Source: Escherichia coli 042 (GTDB taxonomy: Bacteria > Pseudomonadota > Gammaproteobacteria > Enterobacterales > Enterobacteriaceae). From it: a stretch of DNA of 64,000 nt. Position 1 is the stretch's first letter; the number at the start of each line of letters is the position of its first letter. The stretch is taken from the NCBI RefSeq assembly GCF_000027125.1, contig NC_017626.1. One strand, given 5' to 3'. Below the pieces are notes generated by a model. The model had not been told where the DNA came from. It worked only from the letters and a program-made list of their open reading frames with translations, and did not search any database. The translations under genes were made by a program, and so were the position numbers. Below, piece by piece: positions 48,733 to 61,071 of this stretch.

Positions 48733-49087
48733 AATGATGGTTTTATTCAGAGTATATGACTTTCTTTTACCCGCTCAAGATACGTTCCCTAGCGATATCA
48801 TCAGAAGTTTATGTGTTGTGTATCCATCCATATTAATCTGGTTCCAGTTTTCGGTATATGTCATGAGGAAACATTACAAATATATTCTGGAGCGGAGAAA
48901 GGAAATTGAAACCGTTTCAGAAAGGTTGATACGTGAGGCTGATACGAGAGAATATGAACTATGGCGTCCTGCCCGTCGTTTTTTCTCCATTCTTTTTATT
49001 GTTCTATTAGTTTATATTCATTCACTGATAACAACTATAAAATAAAAATTATGGCTGTTCTGATACCGGAGAAGAAACGTTCATTCT

Positions 49088-49806
49088 ATGGTTACCTCTT
49101 CCTGTTATATAAAAATTTTAAATAACAAGCAAGGGAATATAAATGGAAATAACAAAAAATGCAACATAAAAACAGTCATCAGCGGCTGCTTTTTAATGTT
49201 TACTTTATCATTTTCTATTACCTTTATTCCTGCATTCCTTACAAACAGGCAGGAACTTATATCCAGGGGACTTCTTGTTCCAGCATTATTTCTTGCTGAA
49301 TTTCTAATTCTTGTTCCACTGTATTTTATTTTCTTCCGAAAAAGAGAAGGATTAGGAAGAGGTTCTTTTCGACCGGATGTTTTTTACTCTTTTCTCTTTA
49401 ATAATGATTATTCAGTTATTTGTCCCTTATCTGCTGGCAGTGAGGAAAACGGAAGAATGGATGATCTCGCAAATGTCTTTTTCTGAGGCCATTTTATGTT
49501 TCTTCTGTACTTCTATGTTCCTGTATATGAAGAGATTGTATTTCGAGGGTGTTTTTTTAATTCTTTATAATTCTGGTTTAATGACAATATTTACATCTCT
49601 GCCATTGTAACATCAGTCATATTCTCTGCATTGCATCTACAATATACTGACTTTCGTACATTTTTTATGCTCTTTTTAGTATCGTTAGTTCTTATTAGCG
49701 CACAAATAAAGTCGAATGGTCTGTTAATGCCCATATTACTTCACATGGCGATGAATGCAGTCATAGCAGGAATACAATATCTAGCTTATATCAGTTATTC
49801 CCATTA
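49088..49806 (+). pseudogene. possible CPBP (CAAX-protease/Abi)-family membrane protein, apparently frameshifted
   Basis: Three successive overlapping frames of hydrophobic ORFs; the last (49617..49806) reads ...FSALHLQYTDF...LLHMAMNAVIAG, resembling CPBP motifs 2 and 3; motif 1 not clearly seen. Confidence 0.3.
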
Positions 49807-50002
49807 ACAGAGCATTTTCTGTTACAATCTCATATGATAAAAATTAAACGGACTAGCATTGTTACTATGCGGTATGCATAAAATGATAAACGTTCGGAGG
49901 AGCCTAACTTAAACCATTACATAGGCATCATTAACAATATAAGGTTTAATTTCCACTCCCCGCAGACGAAGAAGCACTTGATGTACATCTGCCGGATCCA
50001 AA

Positions 50003-50224
50003 CTAGGATGATAATCCTATACCTGAGGGAGACATGGAGGGACTAACCGTCGCAGTCGTTGCCCATGAATGTACTTTATCACCTATATAAGCCCCTGCAA
50101 TAGAACCAAATCCCGGGCTAATAAACGTACCTGCAAGTGAACCAATAGCAATTAATTCTGCCTGCCCGTCATTCCCGTCACCTCCAGATATTTGTTTTAT
50201 TTCATTTTCAGATAGTTTTCTCAT
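50003..50224 (-). CDS. mcmA: microcin M precursor (class IIb siderophore-microcin)
   Basis: MRKLSENEIKQISGG double-glycine leader and Ser-rich C-terminus ...MSPSGIGLSS; recognised as microcin M precursor; ATG at 50224 with aaggtg RBS; the track ORF extends in-frame upstream from a TTG. Confidence 0.8.
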   Translation of the reverse strand: MRKLSENEIKQISGGDGNDGQAELIAIGSLAGTFISPGFGSIAGAYIGDKVHSWATTATVSPSMSPSGIGLSS

Positions 50225-50285
50225 TTCAACACCTTCGCTATAAAATTTGTGAAGAAGTAAAAATTCACGTTTAACCACAACGATA

Positions 50286-50441
50286 AAAATGTAACTACAA
50301 GTGATAAAAAAACATATATAGATTAAAAAAATTATATCTATAGTAATAACTAAGATATAATGACACCGGAATATAAAAGAACAGATAATTGATAACAAAA
50401 GCAATCACTGTTATTTTTATATCCTTCTTAACCTCCCCCAT
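50286..50441 (-). CDS. candidate microcin M immunity peptide (51 aa, hydrophobic)
   Basis: Hand-translated ORF MGEVKKDIKITVIAFVINYLFFYIPVSLYLSYYYRYNFFNLYMFFYHL between mchF and mcmA with ggag RBS; below the track cutoff; the known immunity protein length was not verified. Confidence 0.35.
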
Positions 50442-50476
50442 CGACAAAACTCCTTACAAAGTTACACCAGTGGATT

Positions 50477-52573
50477 TTAAATAGAAATAATCCTGTCAAC
50501 AGTTCTCAACGTAGTTTCTCTGTGTGCAATAATCACCCGGGTGATATTCATTTTTTTTATGGCAGCATTCACGAAACGTTCACTTTCTGTATCAAGAGAA
50601 CTTGTAGCCTCATCCATAAATAATATTCCAGGTTTCCGGTATAAAGCTCGGGCAATGAATATACGCTGTTTTTGACCGCCGGAAAGACCTTCCCCCAGTT
50701 CACCTATTAACGTTTCATACCCCATTGGCATTTTCATTATCACATCATGAATATGACTTGCTCTGGCACATTCTGTCATCCATTCGTCGTCTGTTTCTTC
50801 TGCAAACCCACAGATATTTTCACGAATTGATCCTGAAAATAGCCGGTCGTCCTGCATAACACAGGCTATCATACGGTGATAATTATTTATTCCAAGTTGA
50901 CGTATATCCGTGCCATTAACCAGTACTTTTCCACTATCTGGTTCAAACAGTCCACATAATACTTTCATTAATGTGGTTTTTCCGGCACCGGAGGCACCAG
51001 TTATAGCCACACTTTCTCCCGGAGCCACAGACAAATTCAGACCACTGAATACCTGTGCTGACTGGCTGTCATACCGGTAGCTTAAATCAGTGGTTTCCAG
51101 TGAAACCGGGCTCATGTCAGCAACGATTTCAATTTCCGGTTTCTTTTCTTCCTTTTCATGTAGTGCAATATCTGCAATGCGCTCATTATGCAGACTCATT
51201 ATTCTCAGTTGAAGAAGAAAACTGGTCAGCGAAGCAACCCGATCCGAAAACTGCCCACGAAAAGAACCAAATGCCACAAACATCCCTATTGTCATCTGAT
51301 TATCGATCACAAGGCTTGCACCCAGCCATAAAATCGCCACCTGATCACAGGCGGCAACAAAAGTATTTATCCCCCCGAAGAGCAAATCCATCTTGGTTAA
51401 CTTAATACCTGAATTGATCGCATCTATTTTCAGGTTAAGCCAGTGTGTTCCCCGGATCCCAGCCATACCTTGGATTTTTACCGTGGCAATACCATACAGG
51501 CTTTCCATAAAATAGGAGCTGGCCCGGGCCCCCCTGACAAGAGTTTCTTCCGATATTTGCCGGTAATAGCCGTATGTCACCAGACGAATAAGAACGTAAA
51601 CCATGGTAAAACCGAGCACTATCCAGGTAAGATATCCTCCATATAACAGCATCATCACAAAAACACCCACAACCATAATACTGTCCATGATTGCCCCAAC
51701 CACACAGGTGGTAAAGGTGGCCCTCAAAGTGTCAAGGGAGCCAAAACGCGACTGGATATCACCTAATTTACGGCGTTCAAAAAACGCCAGCGGCAGTCTG
51801 AGAAGATGGTTAAACAGACCCGACTGCCACTGTATATTGATGAGCGTGCTCATAACCAGTGAGGACCATGCACGCAGCATACTCACCGCGGCCCTGAGCA
51901 ATATAAAGAACATCAGGCCAGCAGAAATAAGCGTCAGCAGCCCTCTGTCCCCCGCCGGAATCGCATGATCCATAACCAGCTGAGTCCCCACCGGCATTAC
52001 CAGATTGATTGCTTCAATTACAACTGACAGACAGAAAATTTTCGCCAGTGTTCTTTTAATACCGTAAATACTGTTAATCAGTGAACGGAGACTTATGCGG
52101 ATCTGCTGGGTTTCCGCCAGGAATTCACTTCCAGGCCAGACCTCAAGTGCAATGCCCGTAAAATACCGGCTCATTTCCTCCCGACCGAGATATCTTCTGC
52201 CTCTGGCCGGATCATGCAGTACATAACGGTTACGCTTTACGCTGACCAGCACGACAAAGTGACTGAAATCCCAGTGGAGAATACACGGCATTTTGAGGGC
52301 ACCAAGTTCATCCAGCTCCAGTGAAAGAGCCCGGGTGACCATCCCCAGCTGCTCCGCTATTCCATTGATTCCTGCAAGGTTTGCTCCACGGGCCGAGAGA
52401 TTAAACTTCCGGCGAAGAGATATCAGGTCAATATTCTTACCAAAATGACCGCATATCATTGCCAGGCAGGCCAGTCCACATTCAGCGGTCTCCGTCTGAT
52501 GAATAACCGGAACACGACGTCGCCAGCGCATATCAAGCTGATTTATAATTTGTCTGAAACTCCCGTTAGTCAT
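50477..52573 (-). CDS. mchF: microcin ABC exporter with N-terminal C39 peptidase domain (CvaB homolog)
   Basis: Track ORF 50477..52591; from [42 protein letters not shown] closely matches CvaB/MchF; Walker [10 protein letters not shown], signature LSGGQ. Confidence 0.85.
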
Positions 52574-53840
52574 TGAGCGGTCCTGTTGCACTGTGTTTCA
52601 TGTCATAGAAAGGAGAAAGCATCCACTGGTAAATACGCCTTTTTTCCAGAAATAGTGTACTTTCGGCTTTCATTCCATTTTCCAGAGGGAGGTATTTTTC
52701 GTCATATCTGATAATCTGCTTTTCAGGCATCGCAATGACTTTATACCAGGGAACAGAGGCGCCCGGCGTATTCTGTGGTGCACCCTTATAGGTCAACATT
52801 TCCTGTGTTGACGCAGGAGTCCTGGATATAGTTTTAACCGTAGCAGAGAACTGCCCAAATTTTTCTGCCGGAAAGGCTTCATAACGAATATTCACTTTGT
52901 CACCAGCCGAAATATAAGGAACAGCATCATTTGGGACCCAGAGAATAAGATAATAGTTTTCAATGTTCTCAGGAATAACCTGCAGAAGGCTGTCTCCGGT
53001 ATTGACCATTTGCCCGACAGTGACACTCAGGGAGTCAACTTTCCCGTCAGTCAACGCCCGGATAATAATTTCGCCCTCCACATCAGTGTTAACCAGTTCT
53101 TTCTGTAACTCGTACCGTTGCAGTTCCATCTGGTAGATACGGTTATCAAAATCTGCAGCCTGAGTCTGAATCTGACTCTCCAGAGTGGTTATCTGCAGGG
53201 CATTCTGTTCGTTCTGTCCGCTCAGGCTGAGAAGATTGTTTTGTTGCTGATAATATAATGCCACCTGGTTAGTTAACTGATCTTTATTAATCAGCCCTTT
53301 TGCCTGATAGTTTCTGTAATTCTCCATATTGTTTTTCATTATTTTTATCCCTTCCTCTGCACGCTGTATAATATCTGATGAGCGACGAAACGCATCTGTG
53401 TATTGCAGACGTTGTTTTTCCAGGGTATCTAACGTTATTTTTTTACTTTCTTCCAGACGGGAAATAATGTTGTCCACACGAACCAGCTGATTTTCTATAT
53501 CCCGCCGATGATTATCAGTGACAATACCACTACGTGTACTTTTACTGATGTCAATCAGATAAACAGGATCCCCTTTTTTTATCAACTGCCCTTCATGAAC
53601 AAATTGCCTGACAACAAATCCCTGTACACCTGAATATATATTGACAGCTCTTGGCCAGGTTGTGACCTCACCACTGACATTAACACGGCGGCTATAGGTA
53701 CCAACAATAATGAACATCAGAAATGCCGTAATAAACACAATGCTTCCCAGCATGATTAACCATAGTGGTATTCCGGGAAGTAATATTGCCCGTCCCTGCC
53801 ACTTCATTTTTCTGTTTTCTAAAGCATCCTGACGAAACAA
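52566..53840 (-). CDS. mchE: microcin secretion membrane fusion protein (CvaA/HlyD family)
   Basis: 424 aa; [40 protein letters not shown] matches CvaA/MchE N-terminus; overlaps mchF start. Confidence 0.85.
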
Positions 53841-53992: not shown

Positions 53993-54445
53993 CTACGTTT
54001 TATGCAGCCGCTCAGGGATGTATGTCACAATTTTCTTTCGCCTGCTTAACCATCGTACTTCTCCTTCCCCCCATGGCTGAAGCTGTATGAGATAGTCAAT
54101 AACTTTTCGACCAAAGCCTGGTTTACAACAGAAATCCAGGATCCAGATCCTTCCATCTTCATTCCATTCAGACGGATGCAACCTGAATTCTGGATCCCTG
54201 AGCAGGCGCGCTTCCGTATCAGCCTCAAGATATGCCCAGGTTATATACGCCAGTGGAAAACCTCGTGAATCAAACAGGAATTTAATCTGATTATGCTGTA
54301 TCGCATATTCAGTCCAGTATTGAATGGTTAACACCGGATACAGACTGTAATTACGATTGTAGAGCATACAACTGACCGCAAAACCTATCTGTTCATAAAC
54401 AGTCCATTCATCTTTTCCTCTGATGGTTTCCCTTATATAAGACAT
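53993..54445 (-). CDS. mchD: microcin maturation protein (MchD/MceI-like)
   Basis: 150-aa ORF between mchC and mchE in the canonical mchCDEF order. Confidence 0.55.
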   Translation of the reverse strand: MSYIRETIRGKDEWTVYEQIGFAVSCMLYNRNYSLYPVLTIQYWTEYAIQHNQIKFLFDSRGFPLAYITWAYLEADTEARLLRDPEFRLHPSEWNEDGRIWILDFCCKPGFGRKVIDYLIQLQPWGEGEVRWLSRRKKIVTYIPERLHKT

Positions 54446-54470: not shown

Positions 54471-56021
54471 TTACACTGTGTTTCTTATCGGTTCAAGATA
54501 TCCAAATGCATCTCTGGAAAACTTAAGCATAAAATTTTTCATATCAGAAATTGCTTCTTGTAAAAAAAGGGGATCATCGCCATGATTATCCAGCAGGATG
54601 GCAATTTTTTCGCACATATTCTCTTTCCTCAGCTCTTCCCTGGGTTGCAGCCTTTTCATGGTATGATGTTCAATTTCTTTCAGGAGTAATGAAGCATTTA
54701 TCTGACGTCTGGTACTGCCTTGCGTCAGCCAGTGGATAGTCTGGGAAAAACACTGTTGTGCAACGGTGAAATAAACATCATTCTTGATGCTACTATTCAG
54801 TGCCTGCTTTTGATTATGCCTATGATGGATTAGCGTCACAACCAACTTTTGCAATGGTGAACCATCCTGATTGACAATATCTTGGGCATGTGATTTCTCG
54901 CAGTATTTATTGAGTAATGCAACAAAACTGTTAACCAGTTGTTTCAATATATCAGGTATCTCTTTTTGTGTTATAAATTCTCCAGGAATACCCAACAGTT
55001 CTAGATAACAGTAATAACATGCTTCATGAAAAGTTTTCTGAAATATCTCCTCAACCTTCAAACGGGCTGCAAGAGTGAAGTCAGGGTCAAACATATATTT
55101 TCCGATATACAAGCAGAGATCAGACAGCCCTTGCATAAGTACCATCGGTTCTTTTGCCAGTTCAGCTAATCTTAGTTTATACCCAAAATCAGCTGGGGAA
55201 TCTCCCGGAAACAGACAACTGAGTCCGTTAAAATCCATTAATCTGCCATCCATTGCAATATTAGAAGGAGAAGTTGTCAATCTCAGGAAACGTGTTCGAC
55301 AAAATGCCATTTGCCAGGCCTCACGACGTGCCAGTTCACATAATCCCTCAATGCAATAAATCCGGGGATCAGTTCGTGCTTCAGCATCAATTTCTTCCGG
55401 TGGTACAGGTAGATATCCTGGCAGCTTGTGGATCACAGATCTAACCCGACAGGCATCGTGAATTAACTGACTGGAATACTCCGGTTTTACTTGGAAGTAT
55501 GGTGCCCGTTCAAAATGCGCCGGGCGAACAACAGGCTCACGTACCAACAGGGCTCTTCGTGATTTCATACCGGAGCGCTCAAATGCCTTTTCAGTATAGA
55601 GATCTGTAAGTAAAACCGCCCGAACCCGCACAGCACTATAAGGTAATATTTGAGCCAGTACTTCTCCCCACAAAGCCTCATATATTGCATGAACAGCGCC
55701 GAGTGCACCATTAGAATGACGTTCGTCAGTACCTTCACCAACCAACGGATTACTTCCTATTCCTTTAACCTGGTAGTTACCATCAAACCCACAACGTGCA
55801 CCACCTCCATTACGCTGAATACCACTGCCACCATAGCGCTCTGCATGGAACACTTTGGCAGAAGCCGTACTGTCAGGATCGATAATATAACTGCAGGCAT
55901 TTTGCAGCTCGCCTGGATTTCTGACATCCTCTGCACACCAGATTAATGAGGACTTGATCTGCCTGGCAGTGAAAGGCACCAGGTTTTCATTCAGTTCAGA
56001 AAGTGAACACTGATGACTCAT
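54471..56021 (-). CDS. mchC: microcin maturation protein (MchC/MceJ-like)
   Basis: 516-aa ORF immediately downstream of mchB, size and position as for MchC. Confidence 0.55.
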   Translation of the reverse strand: MSHQCSLSELNENLVPFTARQIKSSLIWCAEDVRNPGELQNACSYIIDPDSTASAKVFHAERYGGSGIQRNGGGARCGFDGNYQVKGIGSNPLVGEGTDERHSNGALGAVHAIYEALWGEVLAQILPYSAVRVRAVLLTDLYTEKAFERSGMKSRRALLVREPVVRPAHFERAPYFQVKPEYSSQLIHDACRVRSVIHKLPGYLPVPPEEIDAEARTDPRIYCIEGLCELARREAWQMAFCRTRFLRLTTSPSNIAMDGRLMDFNGLSCLFPGDSPADFGYKLRLAELAKEPMVLMQGLSDLCLYIGKYMFDPDFTLAARLKVEEIFQKTFHEACYYCYLELLGIPGEFITQKEIPDILKQLVNSFVALLNKYCEKSHAQDIVNQDGSPLQKLVVTLIHHRHNQKQALNSSIKNDVYFTVAQQCFSQTIHWLTQGSTRRQINASLLLKEIEHHTMKRLQPREELRKENMCEKIAILLDNHGDDPLFLQEAISDMKNFMLKFSRDAFGYLEPIRNTV

Positions 56022-56291: not shown

Positions 56292-56519
56292 TTAGCTACC
56301 GCCACCAGCAGAAGAACTGGCACTACCACTTCCCACGGTCGAGCCAATTGCTGTTGTCAAACCGGCAGATACGGCTCCAACTACAACCCCAAGTGGACCA
56401 CCAGGTATTCCGGCGAGAGCTCCAACAATAGCTGCAGCACCTGCGGCATTAGCTGAAGTCGCTGGCGCACCTCCCGCCCCGGAAATATATCTTAACTGTG
56501 ATTCTGTTATTTCTCGCAT
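56292..56519 (-). CDS. mchB: microcin H47 precursor
   Basis: MREITESQLRYISGAGGAPATSANAAGAAAIVGALAGIPGGPLGVVVGAVSAGLTTAIGSTVGSGSASSSAGGGS; recognised as MchB; track ORF starts 22 codons upstream. Confidence 0.85.
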   Translation of the reverse strand: MREITESQLRYISGAGGAPATSANAAGAAAIVGALAGIPGGPLGVVVGAVSAGLTTAIGSTVGSGSASSSAGGGS

Positions 56520-56535
56520 ATAAACTCCATCATAT

Positions 56536-56745
56536 TTAACTTCCGTTTTTCCAGCCTGACCAGACCAGAATCTTTCGAATCCCATGAATCAGCTCAATAA
56601 AACCAAGAAATATTATAAAGCTTAGAAAAACGTCAACATAAGAATTCCCTTCGCCAACAATCCGAAGGGATGAAAGTGAAACCAATAAGATAGTAAGAGG
56701 TAAACTAAATATAGCCGTCAATTGGTACAGTTTTTTATAACTCAT
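56536..56745 (-). CDS. mchI: microcin H47 immunity protein
   Basis: 69-aa hydrophobic ORF MSYKKLYQLTAIFSLPLTILLVSLSSLRIVGEG... directly upstream of mchB. Confidence 0.8.
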   Translation of the reverse strand: MSYKKLYQLTAIFSLPLTILLVSLSSLRIVGEGNSYVDVFLSFIIFLGFIELIHGIRKILVWSGWKNGS

Positions 56746-57556: not shown

Positions 57557-57991
57557 ATGTATCTTACGAAAAAGATTATAATAAGTATGATGTTTATATT
57601 ACCATCTGCTGCATTTTCATCAGATCCACCTCCCCTTCAACAATCGTTAGAAAAAACAACCTATTTTTCTATAGGTATGAATGGGTTTATAGGCTATCAG
57701 AGCGAAGGGGAAAAATTATACACACACATTCTTACATTAGATAATCCCGAAGAGATATTTAAAAATATAATAAAAAATAGAAAGTCAACTAAGGAGTCTA
57801 AAATTTATGCTGCTTGTGGGCTATATTATTTAAACGTAGAAAATATAGAGTCATTGTTTAATGAAAATGATAAACAAGAATATGTGTCTGTCTTAAGAGG
57901 GGATATTTTAACAAAAATAAAACTGAATGATATTCTGAATTCTGTGATAATAAATGGTTGCAACACCAAATTAATATCTGAACATAAATGA
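57557..57991 (+). CDS. secreted protein upstream of microcin I47 gene (possible immunity/accessory protein)
   Basis: 144 aa with signal peptide MYLTKKIIISMMFILPSAAFS; precedes the I47 precursor by 16 nt; AT-rich codon usage. Confidence 0.4.
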   Translation: MYLTKKIIISMMFILPSAAFSSDPPPLQQSLEKTTYFSIGMNGFIGYQSEGEKLYTHILTLDNPEEIFKNIIKNRKSTKESKIYAACGLYYLNVENIESLFNENDKQEYVSVLRGDILTKIKLNDILNSVIINGCNTKLISEHK

Positions 57992-58007: not shown

Positions 58008-58241
58008 ATGAGAGAAATATCAGATAACATGCTTGATTCCGTGAAAGGAGGGATGAATCTTAATGGATTACCTGCTTCTACTAATGTAATAGATCTACGT
58101 GGAAAAGATATGGGAACATATATTGATGCTAATGGAGCATGCTGGGCTCCGGATACTCCATCCATCATCATGTATCCGGGGGGAAGTGGACCTTCTTATA
58201 GTATGAGTAGTTCCACATCCAGTGCAAACAGCGGCAGTTAA
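58008..58241 (+). CDS. mchS2: microcin I47 precursor
   Basis: MREISDNMLDSVKGG double-glycine leader, Ser-rich C-terminus ...SMSSSTSSANSGS. Confidence 0.6.
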   Translation: MREISDNMLDSVKGGMNLNGLPASTNVIDLRGKDMGTYIDANGACWAPDTPSIIMYPGGSGPSYSMSSSTSSANSGS

Positions 58242-58529: not shown

Positions 58530-59804
58530 ATGATACCTATGAAAAACTATCTTTTCCAGACTCCCGAAGATATTTGTGTACAGTTAAAAAAAATGACACA
58601 TCCTGTCACAATAAGAACAACAGATATTGCTAATTTCTGGCACTATCTTGAGTCAGCAACTCTTCCGGTGATCACAAAAAGCACCACTACAGAAAATCGG
58701 GAGGTTACATTTCTGTGGCGCTCAGAGAAAGCAGTGCAAGGCGTATATCTTCGCCTGAATCGTGTTACAGATAAAAAAGATGTCAAAAAAGGACTAATGA
58801 CTCATATCCCTTCGACAGATATCTGGATGCTGACACTGGTGTTACCAGCTTCATATCGGGGCTCATACTCATTTATAGAAATTCCCACAGATATGACACA
58901 AAAAGACATATTTCAACTAGGAAGTCGCTTCTCTCCATTACCCGGTAAATCTGATCCATTTAACAAAACAGCAGAAATAAATATACGAGGATTCGGAGAA
59001 TCAGTCCTTTCTCTTGATATGGCTCCTGAACAAAAGGAATGGGATGATACTTCCCATAAATGTACAGGTATTCTTTCAACATTACATTCCTTTGTTGCAG
59101 GATATCAACGCCGGATTCGTTTATATTTTCCCCAGAATCCAACATCAGTACCTCTTGGATTACTTGTGTTACCTGATGCTGAAATATGGTTTGACCGGAT
59201 GGATATTACCCGGGCATTAGATATGGCCATTACCACTGGTCATATTGCGCCAATGGCAATTATGGGGATAGACAATATTAATGAATCTGATCGTATGAAT
59301 ATACTGGGAGGCAATAAAGAACTTATCTTTGATATAGCGGAAAATCTGATACCCCAGTTATACAGAGACTACCCGAATATCGTATGGGCTGGTCGTTCTA
59401 ATACTATACTGGCCGGTCAGAGCCTCGGTGGAGTGACAGCACTGATGGCAGCTATATATGCGTCGACAACATTTGGTACAATCATTAGCCACTCACCTTC
59501 AATGTGGTGGAACCCTGACCAGGGCAGCCCGATTTTGTTTACTGAGAATGATATCTCCTGGGTAAGTGAGCAGATACTTTCAGCGCCTCCGAAAGATGTA
59601 AATATCCAACTTGGAGTCGGTTCTTTAGAAGGTACAACCGTCTCACATGTTCAGCGGTTGCATCAGTCGTTAATCGCAGCAGGTTTGGAAAGTAACCTCA
59701 CTGTCTATGCCGGTGGTCATGATTATGCCTGGTGGCGCGGAGCAATTATTGATGCATTAGCAAATTATAATTGCAGGAAGATATCAGATAATAACTTTGT
59801 GTAA
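58530..59804 (+). CDS. mchS1: enterobactin/salmochelin esterase (IroD/Fes-like)
   Basis: 424 aa; alpha/beta-hydrolase GQSLGG nucleophile motif; position next to the IroB-like glycosyltransferase. Confidence 0.65.
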   Translation: MIPMKNYLFQTPEDICVQLKKMTHPVTIRTTDIANFWHYLESATLPVITKSTTTENREVTFLWRSEKAVQGVYLRLNRVTDKKDVKKGLMTHIPSTDIWMLTLVLPASYRGSYSFIEIPTDMTQKDIFQLGSRFSPLPGKSDPFNKTAEINIRGFGESVLSLDMAPEQKEWDDTSHKCTGILSTLHSFVAGYQRRIRLYFPQNPTSVPLGLLVLPDAEIWFDRMDITRALDMAITTGHIAPMAIMGIDNINESDRMNILGGNKELIFDIAENLIPQLYRDYPNIVWAGRSNTILAGQSLGGVTALMAAIYASTTFGTIISHSPSMWWNPDQGSPILFTENDISWVSEQILSAPPKDVNIQLGVGSLEGTTVSHVQRLHQSLIAAGLESNLTVYAGGHDYAWWRGAIIDALANYNCRKISDNNFV

Positions 59805-59952: not shown

Positions 59953-61071
59953 TTATTTCCCGTTGTTTTTTAATTTTCTCATCAAAACCTCTGCGATCTC
60001 TGCAGGACTGGGTTGTTCAGCCATTTCAGCGGCTACCTGATCTGAACAGAAGCGTAGTGAATCATCATAAAGCAGGCGATTTACCAAATCACTGGTCAGT
60101 CCATGCTTGTCCGGAATAATCCCACACCCACGCATCGCAACAATTTCTGCATTAACAGAGCGATCTGCACCTTCGCCAAACACAATCTGTGGTATCCCAC
60201 TATACAACGCTGTCAGGGTATTACCTGCGCCACCATGATGAATAAATCCATCAGCTCCATTAAGGAATACACCCATAGGTATCCAGTCAACCAGACGTAC
60301 ATTTGATGGTAGTTTTCGTAATCCAGTACGAGCATTTATTGCAAGTTGCAAAATGATATCAGCATCAACTTCATTTGCAGAATCCATAACCCATGAAATC
60401 AGCTCCAGACCATCAACCATTGGTTTTACAGTGCCAAGGCTGATGAGTAAACGTTTTCGATCAGAATCCCTGTCCCACCATGTTTCCTTTACAGCACCTC
60501 CGTTATAAGGAATATATCTCATTGAGATAACCGGTTCTTCAGCATTTTTAAGAATGCTCATACTTGGGGGAGCAACATCAATCCATGCTAAATCACATAG
60601 TGGACCGCTGACTCCATGCCGCCTGTAAGCATTGCTTAAAGAACGGTTTAACATCTGAATATGGGCAGATGTATGCGCGAATCCAACAGCCAGCATCACT
60701 GAAGGAATTCTATATTTAGCAGCAACCAATGGGCCTGCCGGACCAAGCGGGGGATAGACTATTAAATCTGGCCTCCATTTTCCTGCAAAATCGATGAGGT
60801 TATCTGCCATTTCATCGCTAAAAAAAGAGAAATGACCAATAATATTACTTTTTTTCCTCAACTCTTCCTGATGGCGATATCCAGCCTCTGAATCTAAACT
60901 TGGAACTGCATCAAAAACAACCAGTCCAGCTTCTGCTGCTTTATTCGCGAATTTGCCAGCACTACTAATTACTACATCATGTCCGATTACACGAAAGGCC
61001 TGAGCCAGAGAAATCAATGGGTATAACAAACCGTACAGCGGTGGGCCAATAAAAAGAATACGTTTTCGCAT
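59953..61071 (-). CDS. mchA: enterobactin C-glucosyltransferase (IroB-like GT1)
   Basis: 372 aa; GT1 signature HHGGAGNTLTALYSGIPQIVFGEGADRSVNAEIV. Confidence 0.7.
   Translation of the reverse strand: MRKRILFIGPPLYGLLYPLISLAQAFRVIGHDVVISSAGKFANKAAEAGLVVFDAVPSLDSEAGYRHQEELRKKSNIIGHFSFFSDEMADNLIDFAGKWRPDLIVYPPLGPAGPLVAAKYRIPSVMLAVGFAHTSAHIQMLNRSLSNAYRRHGVSGPLCDLAWIDVAPPSMSILKNAEEPVISMRYIPYNGGAVKETWWDRDSDRKRLLISLGTVKPMVDGLELISWVMDSANEVDADIILQLAINARTGLRKLPSNVRLVDWIPMGVFLNGADGFIHHGGAGNTLTALYSGIPQIVFGEGADRSVNAEIVAMRGCGIIPDKHGLTSDLVNRLLYDDSLRFCSDQVAAEMAEQPSPAEIAEVLMRKLKNNGK

What the first reader, a model, noticed from the sequence alone, without database searches (positions are those of the whole stretch)
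50225..50441. Unresolved immunity gene upstream of mcmA: in-frame open extension versus a 51-codon hydrophobic ORF in another frame
The mcmA reading frame stays open for 60 codons upstream of its ATG (from a TTG at 50404), giving a very hydrophobic extension. A separate frame contains a 51-aa ORF (50286..50441) with an ATG and a ggag RBS that looks like a small TM immunity peptide. Which encodes the microcin M immunity function, and whether the in-frame extension is ever translated, cannot be decided by eye.
Basis: seen in the sequence. Interest (0 to 1): 0.4.

Follow-up and report, generated by a model that had tools for sequence, protein, structure and literature searches.

The report
Frameshifted microcin M immunity pseudogene
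The two puzzling reading frames upstream of the microcin M gene both come from one ordinary event, a one-base deletion in a run of T's that broke the known immunity gene mcmI in a strain whose microcin M toxin gene is also broken.

Summary
The interval is the known microcin M immunity gene mcmI, on the minus strand between mchF and mcmA. It is present here as a frameshifted pseudogene.

- **Reference gene.** In E. coli Nissle 1917, mcmI is a single 73-codon ORF whose TGA overlaps the mcmA ATG. Its product is an exact match to UniRef Q83TS3 "McmI".
- **The lesion.** The window has T7 (50312-50306) where the reference has T8.
- **The ATG ORF.** It runs 50441..50295 and has 48 codons, not 51. It encodes McmI residues 1-45 followed by YHL and a stop.
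- **The rest of mcmI.** The conserved last 28 codons survive in the third frame (50307..50221).
- **The mcmA-frame extension.** The 60-codon extension is not McmI in either half. The deletion joined two non-coding frames of a T-rich gene. It has no ribosome-binding site. With T8 the frame is open for only 33 codons.
- **Neighbouring MccM genes.** mcmA has a premature TAG (Q74*) that removes its serine-rich C-terminal tail. The downstream CPBP gene (mcmM) is also frameshifted. The microcin H47 and I47 genes look intact.
- **Prior knowledge.** The exact 48-aa product is listed in 1174 blocks of the public assembly collection and is already named "McmI truncated protein".

This is ordinary gene decay and is already known.

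The parts
50221..50441 (-). mcmI (microcin M immunity gene), frameshifted pseudogene: 221 nt against 222 nt in the reference
   Evidence: DNA alignment to Nissle 1917. The Nissle ORF is 73 aa from its ATG and is an exact match to UniRef Q83TS3 McmI. The CFT073 reannotation gives McmI as 222 nt, overlapping mcmA by 4 nt.
50295..50441 (-). 48-codon ORF plus TAG: McmI residues 1-45 (with G35R) followed by out-of-frame YHL and a stop.
   Evidence: The exact product is in public databases, named 'McmI truncated protein'.
50450..50455 (-). Shine-Dalgarno AAGGAG, 8 nt upstream of the mcmI ATG
   Evidence: Sequence read directly.
50306..50312 (-). T7 homopolymer (T8 in the reference): the site of the 1-nt deletion
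   Evidence: T7 in 9 of 255 complete E. coli records.
50221..50307 (-). 3' part of mcmI, intact in the third frame: LSLVVTFLSLWLNVNFYFFTNFIAKVLK plus a TGA that overlaps the mcmA ATG. It is 27/28 identical to the reference.
50225..50404 (-). 60-codon open extension of the mcmA frame from a TTG. It is a non-coding by-product of the deletion: frame b upstream of the T run joined to the mcmA frame downstream. No SD.
   Evidence: The exact 133-aa sequence is absent from the protein collection.
50003..50224 (-). mcmA truncated ORF (73 codons). The double-glycine leader MRKLSENEIKQISGG is present.
50003..50005 (-). Premature TAG (CAG in the reference; Q74*). It removes the last 19 residues, including the Ser-rich tail.
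49946..50002 (-). Untranslated remainder of mcmA, down to the original TAA
   Evidence: alignment
50477..52591 (-). mchF, microcin export peptidase/ABC transporter. Intact; it ends 35 nt upstream of the mcmI ATG.
49196..49807 (+). CPBP-family intramembrane protease gene (mcmM). Frameshifted, with an internal stop.
   Evidence: PGAP note in the collinear JE86-ST05 record (identical over the 571-nt query), mapped to window coordinates. The ORFs are split, against the intact 229-aa Nissle protein.

Best explanation
The interval is the known gene mcmI, inactivated by a single-base deletion in a T8 homopolymer.

Anatomy:
- In functional loci, mcmI is a 73-codon gene for a small two-segment membrane protein. 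It is translated from ATG with an AAGGAG SD, and its TGA overlaps the mcmA ATG (ATGA), so the two genes appear to be translationally coupled.
- In this window the T7 allele shifts the ribosome into a frame that stops after 3 more codons.
- The product is 48 aa. It keeps the first hydrophobic segment but loses most of the second one and the conserved C-terminal 28 residues. It also carries G35R at an otherwise G/D position.
- This product is most likely non-functional (inferred).
- The same deletion fuses an upstream non-coding frame to the mcmA frame. That creates the 60-codon 'extension', which is not translated to any meaningful extent (inferred: no SD, not conserved).

Context: the loss is tolerated because the strain no longer makes active microcin M.
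- mcmA has Q74*, which removes the Ser-rich C-terminus needed for siderophore attachment and receptor-mediated uptake.
- mcmM is also a pseudogene.
- So the MccM-specific module (mcmI, mcmA, mcmM) is decaying, while the shared export and modification genes and the MccH47 and MccI47 genes are retained.
For: Shown:
- Alignment to Nissle 1917 shows T8->T7 as the only indel in mcmI, plus G35R, L68F and one synonymous change.
- The Nissle 73-aa ORF is an exact match to UniRef Q83TS3 'Microcin M imunity protein McmI'. CFT073 McmI is 222 nt and overlaps mcmA by 4 nt.
- Cloned mcmI protects a sensitive strain from MccM (PMC6776366).
- Three-frame translation shows McmI residues 1-45 in one frame and the last 28 residues (reference residues 46-73) in another. 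The mcmA-frame extension matches neither.
- Homologues in Klebsiella and Salmonella, and 53%-identical relatives, are 77-84 aa and strongly conserve the C-terminal half.
- Hydropathy: two hydrophobic segments in the wild type, one in the 48-aa product.
- The exact 48-aa product is counted on 697 contigs and is already named 'McmI truncated protein'. It is listed in 1174 blocks of the collection.
- In 8 of 9 independent loci a 73-aa truncated McmA is called next to it. The ninth (L009) has no mcmA call and carries a G->T at 50113.
- T7 occurs in 9 of 255 complete-genome records, on at least two haplotypes.
- In every T7 genome whose locus I inspected, MccM production is otherwise disabled. Examples are Q74*, an mchF remnant in TL-14, and an IS3 insertion in mcmA in CS6L.
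- Further decay is seen within the haplotype.
Against: - No expression or immunity data exist for this allele. Loss of function of the 48-aa product is inferred from truncation and conservation, not measured.
- The C-terminal remnant is still nearly intact (27/28). That fits a recent event, but it would also be expected if low-level frame restoration were selected.
- The order of the events (mcmA nonsense versus mcmI frameshift) could not be established. No intermediate haplotype was found among complete genomes.
Confidence: 0.9

Rival explanations
1. Recoding or contingency locus. The T7/T8 tract acts as a slippery site. Transcriptional slippage that adds a U, or a -1 ribosomal shift on UUU_UUU_U, would restore full-length wild-type McmI at a low level. 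Alternatively the tract could act as a phase-variable on/off switch for immunity.
For: - A -1 shift or a one-U insertion at the tract would regenerate exactly the wild-type ...MFFLSLVV... sequence.
- The downstream 28 codons are still open and 27/28 identical.
- Indel variants recur at both T runs: P0047 (compensated double shift), P0052, P0054, P0055. T7 lies on at least two haplotypes.
Against: - About 246 of 255 complete-genome records have the non-T7 (in-frame T8) allele. The shifted state is therefore not the conserved state.
- The zero-frame context AUG_UUU_UUU_UAU is not a canonical X_XXY_YYZ heptamer (read directly from the sequence).
- There is no stimulatory structure downstream (MFE -12.5 kcal/mol, z = -0.69) and no Rfam element.
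- From general knowledge, runs of 7 T slip only weakly in E. coli.
- All inspected T7 loci are otherwise dead for MccM.
- Some descendants have a further frameshift in the remnant.
Confidence: 0.05
2. The 48-aa truncated McmI is itself a functional single-pass immunity peptide.
For: It keeps the start codon, the SD and the most conserved N-terminal block NYLFFYIPVSLYL. The allele is widespread.
Against: - It loses a C-terminal half that is highly conserved across genera and the second hydrophobic segment.
- It carries G35R at a conserved position.
- It is always linked to a defective mcmA, as expected for relaxed selection.
Confidence: 0.04
3. Homopolymer sequencing or assembly error: the real genome has T8 and an intact mcmI.
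For: Single-base homopolymer errors are common in long-read assemblies (general knowledge).
Against: - The identical allele, with its linked private SNPs (G35R, L68F, Q74*), appears in four other complete genomes.
- The product is counted on 697 contigs and listed in 1174 collection blocks from many independent projects.
Confidence: 0.01
4. The 133-codon ORF is real: McmA is made with a 60-residue hydrophobic N-terminal extension starting at TTG 50404.
For: The frame is open, and that is unlikely under simple shuffling (87 of 20,000).
Against: - There is no SD within range of the TTG, whereas the mcmA ATG has GAAGGTG 5 nt upstream.
- The extension exists only on the rare T7 allele. With T8 the frame is open for just 33 codons.
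- The double-glycine leader would be buried internally.
- The exact sequence is absent from the 15-billion-protein collection.
- It has no family match.
Confidence: 0.01

Closest known systems
McmI, microcin M immunity protein of E. coli Nissle 1917 / CA46 / CA58 / CFT073 (UniRef Q83TS3)
   Same: Same position (between mchF and mcmA), same strand, same start codon and SD. The interval has only a handful of base differences from Nissle (6 over mcmI plus mcmA). Residues 1-45 are 44/45 identical and the last 28 residues are 27/28 identical.
   Different: A 1-nt deletion in the T8 run splits the ORF. The product is 48 aa instead of 73, and it carries the G35R and L68F substitutions.
Public 'McmI (Microcin M immunity protein) truncated protein' entries (e.g. 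BBU15766.1; E. coli KTE44 WGI_00174)
   Same: Identical 48-aa sequence. Where a neighbouring gene is called, it is the same 73-aa truncated McmA (8 of 9 loci).
   Different: None. The window carries this already-recorded allele.
McmA, microcin M precursor (class IIb siderophore microcin, 92 aa, WP_001318125.1)
   Same: Identical leader and core over residues 1-73.
   Different: Q74* removes QFGSGRGTSSASSSAGSGS. PGAP therefore names it only 'colicin V family bacteriocin'.
Homopolymer-tract frameshift pseudogenes / contingency loci in Enterobacteriaceae
   Same: Indels recur at short T runs.
   Different: There is no evidence of reversible switching or of selection for the tract. The shifted alleles sit in otherwise defunct loci.

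Membership tests
McmI (microcin M immunity protein) | Located immediately upstream of mcmA and downstream of mchF, on the same strand, with its stop overlapping the mcmA ATG (ATGA) | tested here: met
McmI (microcin M immunity protein) | Sequence identity to the reference McmI (Q83TS3) | tested here: met
   44/45 N-terminal and 27/28 C-terminal residues, in two different frames. Six base differences from Nissle over mcmI plus mcmA.
McmI (microcin M immunity protein) | Uninterrupted ORF of about 73 codons (73-84 in homologues) | tested here: not met
   T8->T7 frameshift with a stop after codon 48. It is therefore filed as a pseudogene of mcmI, not as a functional member.
McmI (microcin M immunity protein) | Two hydrophobic (membrane) segments | tested here: not met
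   Kyte-Doolittle 19-residue windows: the wild type has segments at about 8-31 and about 37-64. The 48-aa product has only the first.
McmI (microcin M immunity protein) | Confers immunity to microcin M | not testable with these tools
   Shown for wild-type mcmI in PMC6776366. This allele is untested.
Class IIb (siderophore) microcin precursor McmA | Double-glycine leader | tested here: met
   MRKLSENEIKQISGG
Class IIb (siderophore) microcin precursor McmA | Ser-rich C-terminal tail ending in Ser, for attachment of the catecholate siderophore | tested here: not met
   TAG at codon 74 removes the last 19 residues.
Programmed frameshift / transcriptional-slippage gene | The out-of-frame arrangement is conserved among homologues | tested here: not met
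   About 246 of 255 complete-genome records carry the non-T7 (in-frame) allele, and all distant homologues are single ORFs.
Programmed frameshift / transcriptional-slippage gene | Canonical slippery heptamer with a stimulatory downstream structure or an upstream SD | tested here: not met
   The zero-frame context is AUG_UUU_UUU_UAU. The downstream fold has z = -0.69. There is no Rfam hit.

The most novel reading that the evidence does not exclude
The paired T7/T8 runs inside mcmI act as a mutational or transcriptional slippage switch. Under this reading, T7 alleles still yield a small fraction of full-length McmI, or can revert at high frequency. Strains that have lost microcin M production would then keep a low-cost, standby immunity against MccM-producing competitors.
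Probability: 0.05. Interest if true: 0.35.

Novelty: already known. Interest (0 to 1): 0.1.

Why it matters
There is little new biology here. The finding resolves an annotation ambiguity: the strain should be scored as negative for both MccM production and MccM immunity, even though BLAST-level 'presence' of mcmI and mcmA would score it positive.

This has practical relevance for surveys that count microcin genes by nucleotide coverage and identity. PMC6776366, for example, uses >80% coverage and >90% identity. Such cut-offs would count this widespread allele as intact.

It is also a clear example of a toxin gene and its cognate immunity gene decaying together, while the neighbouring MccH47 and MccI47 modules and the shared export and modification genes stay intact.

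Tried and rejected
- **NCBIfam scan** of wild-type McmI, the 48-aa product and the extension. No family matched any of them, so there is no curated McmI model. That explains why PGAP leaves mcmI unannotated.
- **Promoter/terminator scan of 49800-50800.** It found 5 promoter-like sites against 3.7 +/- 1.7 expected, and no terminator, so it is uninformative. mcmI starts 35 nt after mchF and may be co-transcribed with it.
- **Rfam search of 49000-51500** at E <= 1: nothing.
- **RNA fold downstream of the T run**, looking for a frameshift stimulator: not better than shuffles.
- **Search for an intermediate haplotype** (T7 with intact mcmA on the window's SNP background, or Q74* with T8) among complete genomes. 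None was found. The next-best records are 98.8% identical, so the order of the two inactivating mutations is unresolved.
- **Rejected idea: the mcmA-frame extension is the C-terminal half of McmI.** Translation shows that the C-terminal half lies in the third frame, not the mcmA frame.

Full report
**Observation.** All the features lie on the minus strand.
- The microcin gene starts at ATG 50224. Its frame stays open for exactly 60 codons upstream, to a TTG at 50404 (133-aa ORF 50003..50404).
- In another frame, an ATG at 50441 is preceded by AAGGAG (50455-50450, 8-nt spacer). It opens an ORF that ends at TAG 50297-50295.
- Both conceptual products are strongly hydrophobic.

**What the reference locus looks like.** A megablast of 49950-50520 against complete E. 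coli genomes found the locus in 259 records. Four were 100% identical and the rest were 98.8% identical or less. In E. coli Nissle 1917 the same interval holds one uninterrupted ORF: MGEVKKDIKITVIAFVINYLFFYIPVSLYLSYYYGYNFFNLYMFFLSLVVTFLSLWLNVNFYFFTNLIAKVLK.
- It is 73 aa counted from the ATG.
- Its TGA overlaps the mcmA ATG (ATGA).
- This exact sequence is UniRef Q83TS3, 'Microcin M imunity protein McmI'.
- The CFT073 reannotation lists McmI as 222 nt, overlapping the 279-nt mcmA by 4 nt (PMC2785843).
- Plasmid-borne mcmI protects a sensitive strain from MccM (PMC6776366).

The reference mcmI therefore maps exactly onto the finding's interval.

**What is different in the window.** The alignment shows one indel: a T8 run in Nissle is T7 here (50312-50306). 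Three-frame translation then explains everything.
- The ATG frame reads McmI residues 1-45 (44/45 identical, G35R), then YHL and a stop.
- The remaining 28 codons of McmI (LSLVVTFLSLWLNVNFYFFTNFIAKVLK, 27/28 identical, L68F) are intact. They lie in a third frame (50307..50221) and still end at the TGA that overlaps the mcmA ATG.
- The mcmA-frame extension matches McmI in neither half. Upstream of the T run it is the alternative frame that terminates as '...ICFFYHL*' in Nissle. Downstream it is the natural upstream continuation of the mcmA frame.
- In Nissle the mcmA frame is open for only 33 codons, and its longest start-codon ORF adds 18 residues.
- The 60-codon openness is thus created by the same deletion. 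It is helped by the T-rich, A-poor composition (99 T in 217 nt) of a gene that encodes a hydrophobic protein.
- The TTG at 50404 has no SD in range, whereas the mcmA ATG has GAAGGTG just upstream.
- The exact 133-aa sequence is not in the ~15-billion-protein collection.

**Is the full-length frame the functional unit?** Homologues from Klebsiella pneumoniae (77 aa, on at least 1000 contigs), Salmonella (77-84 aa) and 53%-identical relatives (79 aa) are all single ORFs.
- Their C-terminal halves are strongly conserved: LSLxxxSxSxxLNVxFYFFTxL.
- Position 35 is G or D in all intact sequences and R in the window.
- Hydropathy gives two hydrophobic segments in wild-type McmI (about 8-31 and about 37-64) and only the first in the 48-aa product.
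- I infer that the truncated product is non-functional. This was not tested.

**Real allele, not an error, and already recorded.**
- The exact 48-aa product is counted on 697 contigs, under names such as 'McmI (Microcin M immunity protein) truncated protein'. It is listed in 1174 blocks of the assembly collection.
- Nine independent loci carry it with 0-1 differences from the window over mcmI and mcmA.
- A 73-aa McmA is called next to it in eight of the nine.

**Context: the whole MccM module is decaying.**
- mcmA has CAG->TAG at 50005-50003 (Q74*). This removes QFGSGRGTSSASSSAGSGS, so PGAP calls it only 'colicin V family bacteriocin' in the collinear strain JE86-ST05, which is identical over the 571-nt query.
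- From established knowledge of class IIb microcins, the Ser-rich tail carries the catecholate siderophore needed for uptake. The truncated peptide should therefore be inactive as a siderophore-microcin (inferred).
- The downstream CPBP-family gene (mcmM) is frameshifted and has an internal stop.
- These genes are intact ORFs:

| Gene | Window coordinates | Strand |
|---|---|---|
| mchF | 50477-52591 | - |
| mchE | 52566-53840 | - |
| mchD | 53993-54445 | - |
| mchC | 54471-56021 | - |
| mchB | 56292-56519 | - |
| mchI | 56536-56745 | - |
| mchS3 | 57557-57991 | + |
| mciA-like 77-aa ORF | 58008-58241 | + |
| mcmK-like | 58530-59804 | + |
| mcmL-like | 59953-61071 | - |

**Recurrence.**
- T7 is present in 9 of 255 complete-genome records.
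- Five of these (TL-14, 800, A37, A27, CS6L) are not among the four records identical to the window. The two aligned in detail (TL-14, CS6L) carry Nissle-like bases at three flanking SNPs. T7 has therefore either arisen more than once or has recombined.
- In the T7 loci I examined, MccM production is otherwise impossible. TL-14 has only a remnant of mchF. CS6L has an IS3 insertion in mcmA.
- Other indel alleles map to the two T runs: P0047 (compensated double shift), P0054, P0055, and P0052 (an in-frame 7-codon deletion on the window haplotype).
- One descendant of the window haplotype has a further 1-nt deletion in the remnant (L010).
- This is the pattern expected for homopolymer slippage under relaxed selection.

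**Alternatives considered.**
- *Frame restoration.* A -1 ribosomal shift or a one-U transcriptional insertion at the T7 run would regenerate wild-type McmI exactly. However, the shifted state is the minority state. The context is not a canonical heptamer. No stimulatory structure (z = -0.69) or Rfam element is present. I give this about 5%.
- *A functional 48-aa peptide:* about 4%.
- *Sequencing error:* about 1%.
- *A real N-terminally extended McmA:* about 1%.

**Verdict.** The finding resolves to a frameshifted pseudogene of the known immunity gene mcmI, next to a nonsense-truncated mcmA. The allele is already recorded and widespread. It is ordinary gene decay and of low interest. It matters mainly as a caution for microcin gene-presence surveys.

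Noticed in passing
window 50003-50005 (- strand); mcmA 49946-50224: mcmA carries a premature TAG (CAG in Nissle; Q74*). This removes the 19-residue Ser-rich C-terminus. The 73-aa product is seen on 780 contigs and is named only 'colicin V family bacteriocin'.
   Followed up: yes
window 49196-49807 (+ strand; split ORFs 49088-49486, 49377-49610, 49631-49807): The CPBP-family intramembrane protease gene downstream of mcmA (mcmM) is frameshifted and has an internal stop. The Nissle protein is intact at 229 aa.
   Followed up: partly
window 58008-58241 (+ strand): An intact 77-aa ORF (MREISDNMLDSVKGG...SSTSSANSGS) has a double-glycine leader and a Ser-rich tail. It lies directly after mchS3 (57557-57991). 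From memory it matches the microcin I47 precursor (MciA/MchS2). It has no CDS in the RefSeq annotation of the collinear JE86-ST05 record.
   Followed up: partly
Nissle locus L002 3080-3301; protein clusters: mcmI is not annotated at all by PGAP in Nissle 1917, and NCBIfam has no model for it. Many NCBI entries for this 73-77-aa membrane peptide, in E. coli, Klebsiella and Salmonella, are named 'TetR family transcriptional regulator'. This looks like a propagated misannotation.
   Followed up: partly
window 50325-50331 and 50306-50312 (- strand): Two T runs lie 19 nt apart inside mcmI, and both are indel-prone in public sequences. P0047 has a shift at the first run that is compensated at the second. 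P0055 is shifted at both. P0052 has a 7-codon in-frame deletion between the runs, on the window's R35/F68 haplotype, which restores the C-terminal frame (single 1.8-kb ENA contig).
   Followed up: partly
L010 (LR134238.1) at window-equivalent 50289; L009 at window-equivalent 50113: Members of the same haplotype show additional lesions. L010 has a second 1-nt deletion in the mcmI remnant. L009 has a G->T in mcmA, and no mcmA gene was called there.
   Followed up: no
L004 (TL-14) 7570-8390; L005 (CS6L) 5763-9615: Other E. coli lineages keep only a stub of the microcin island. TL-14 has an mchF 3' remnant, T7 mcmI and an intact mcmA. CS6L has mchF, T7 mcmI and an mcmA interrupted by IS3.
   Followed up: partly
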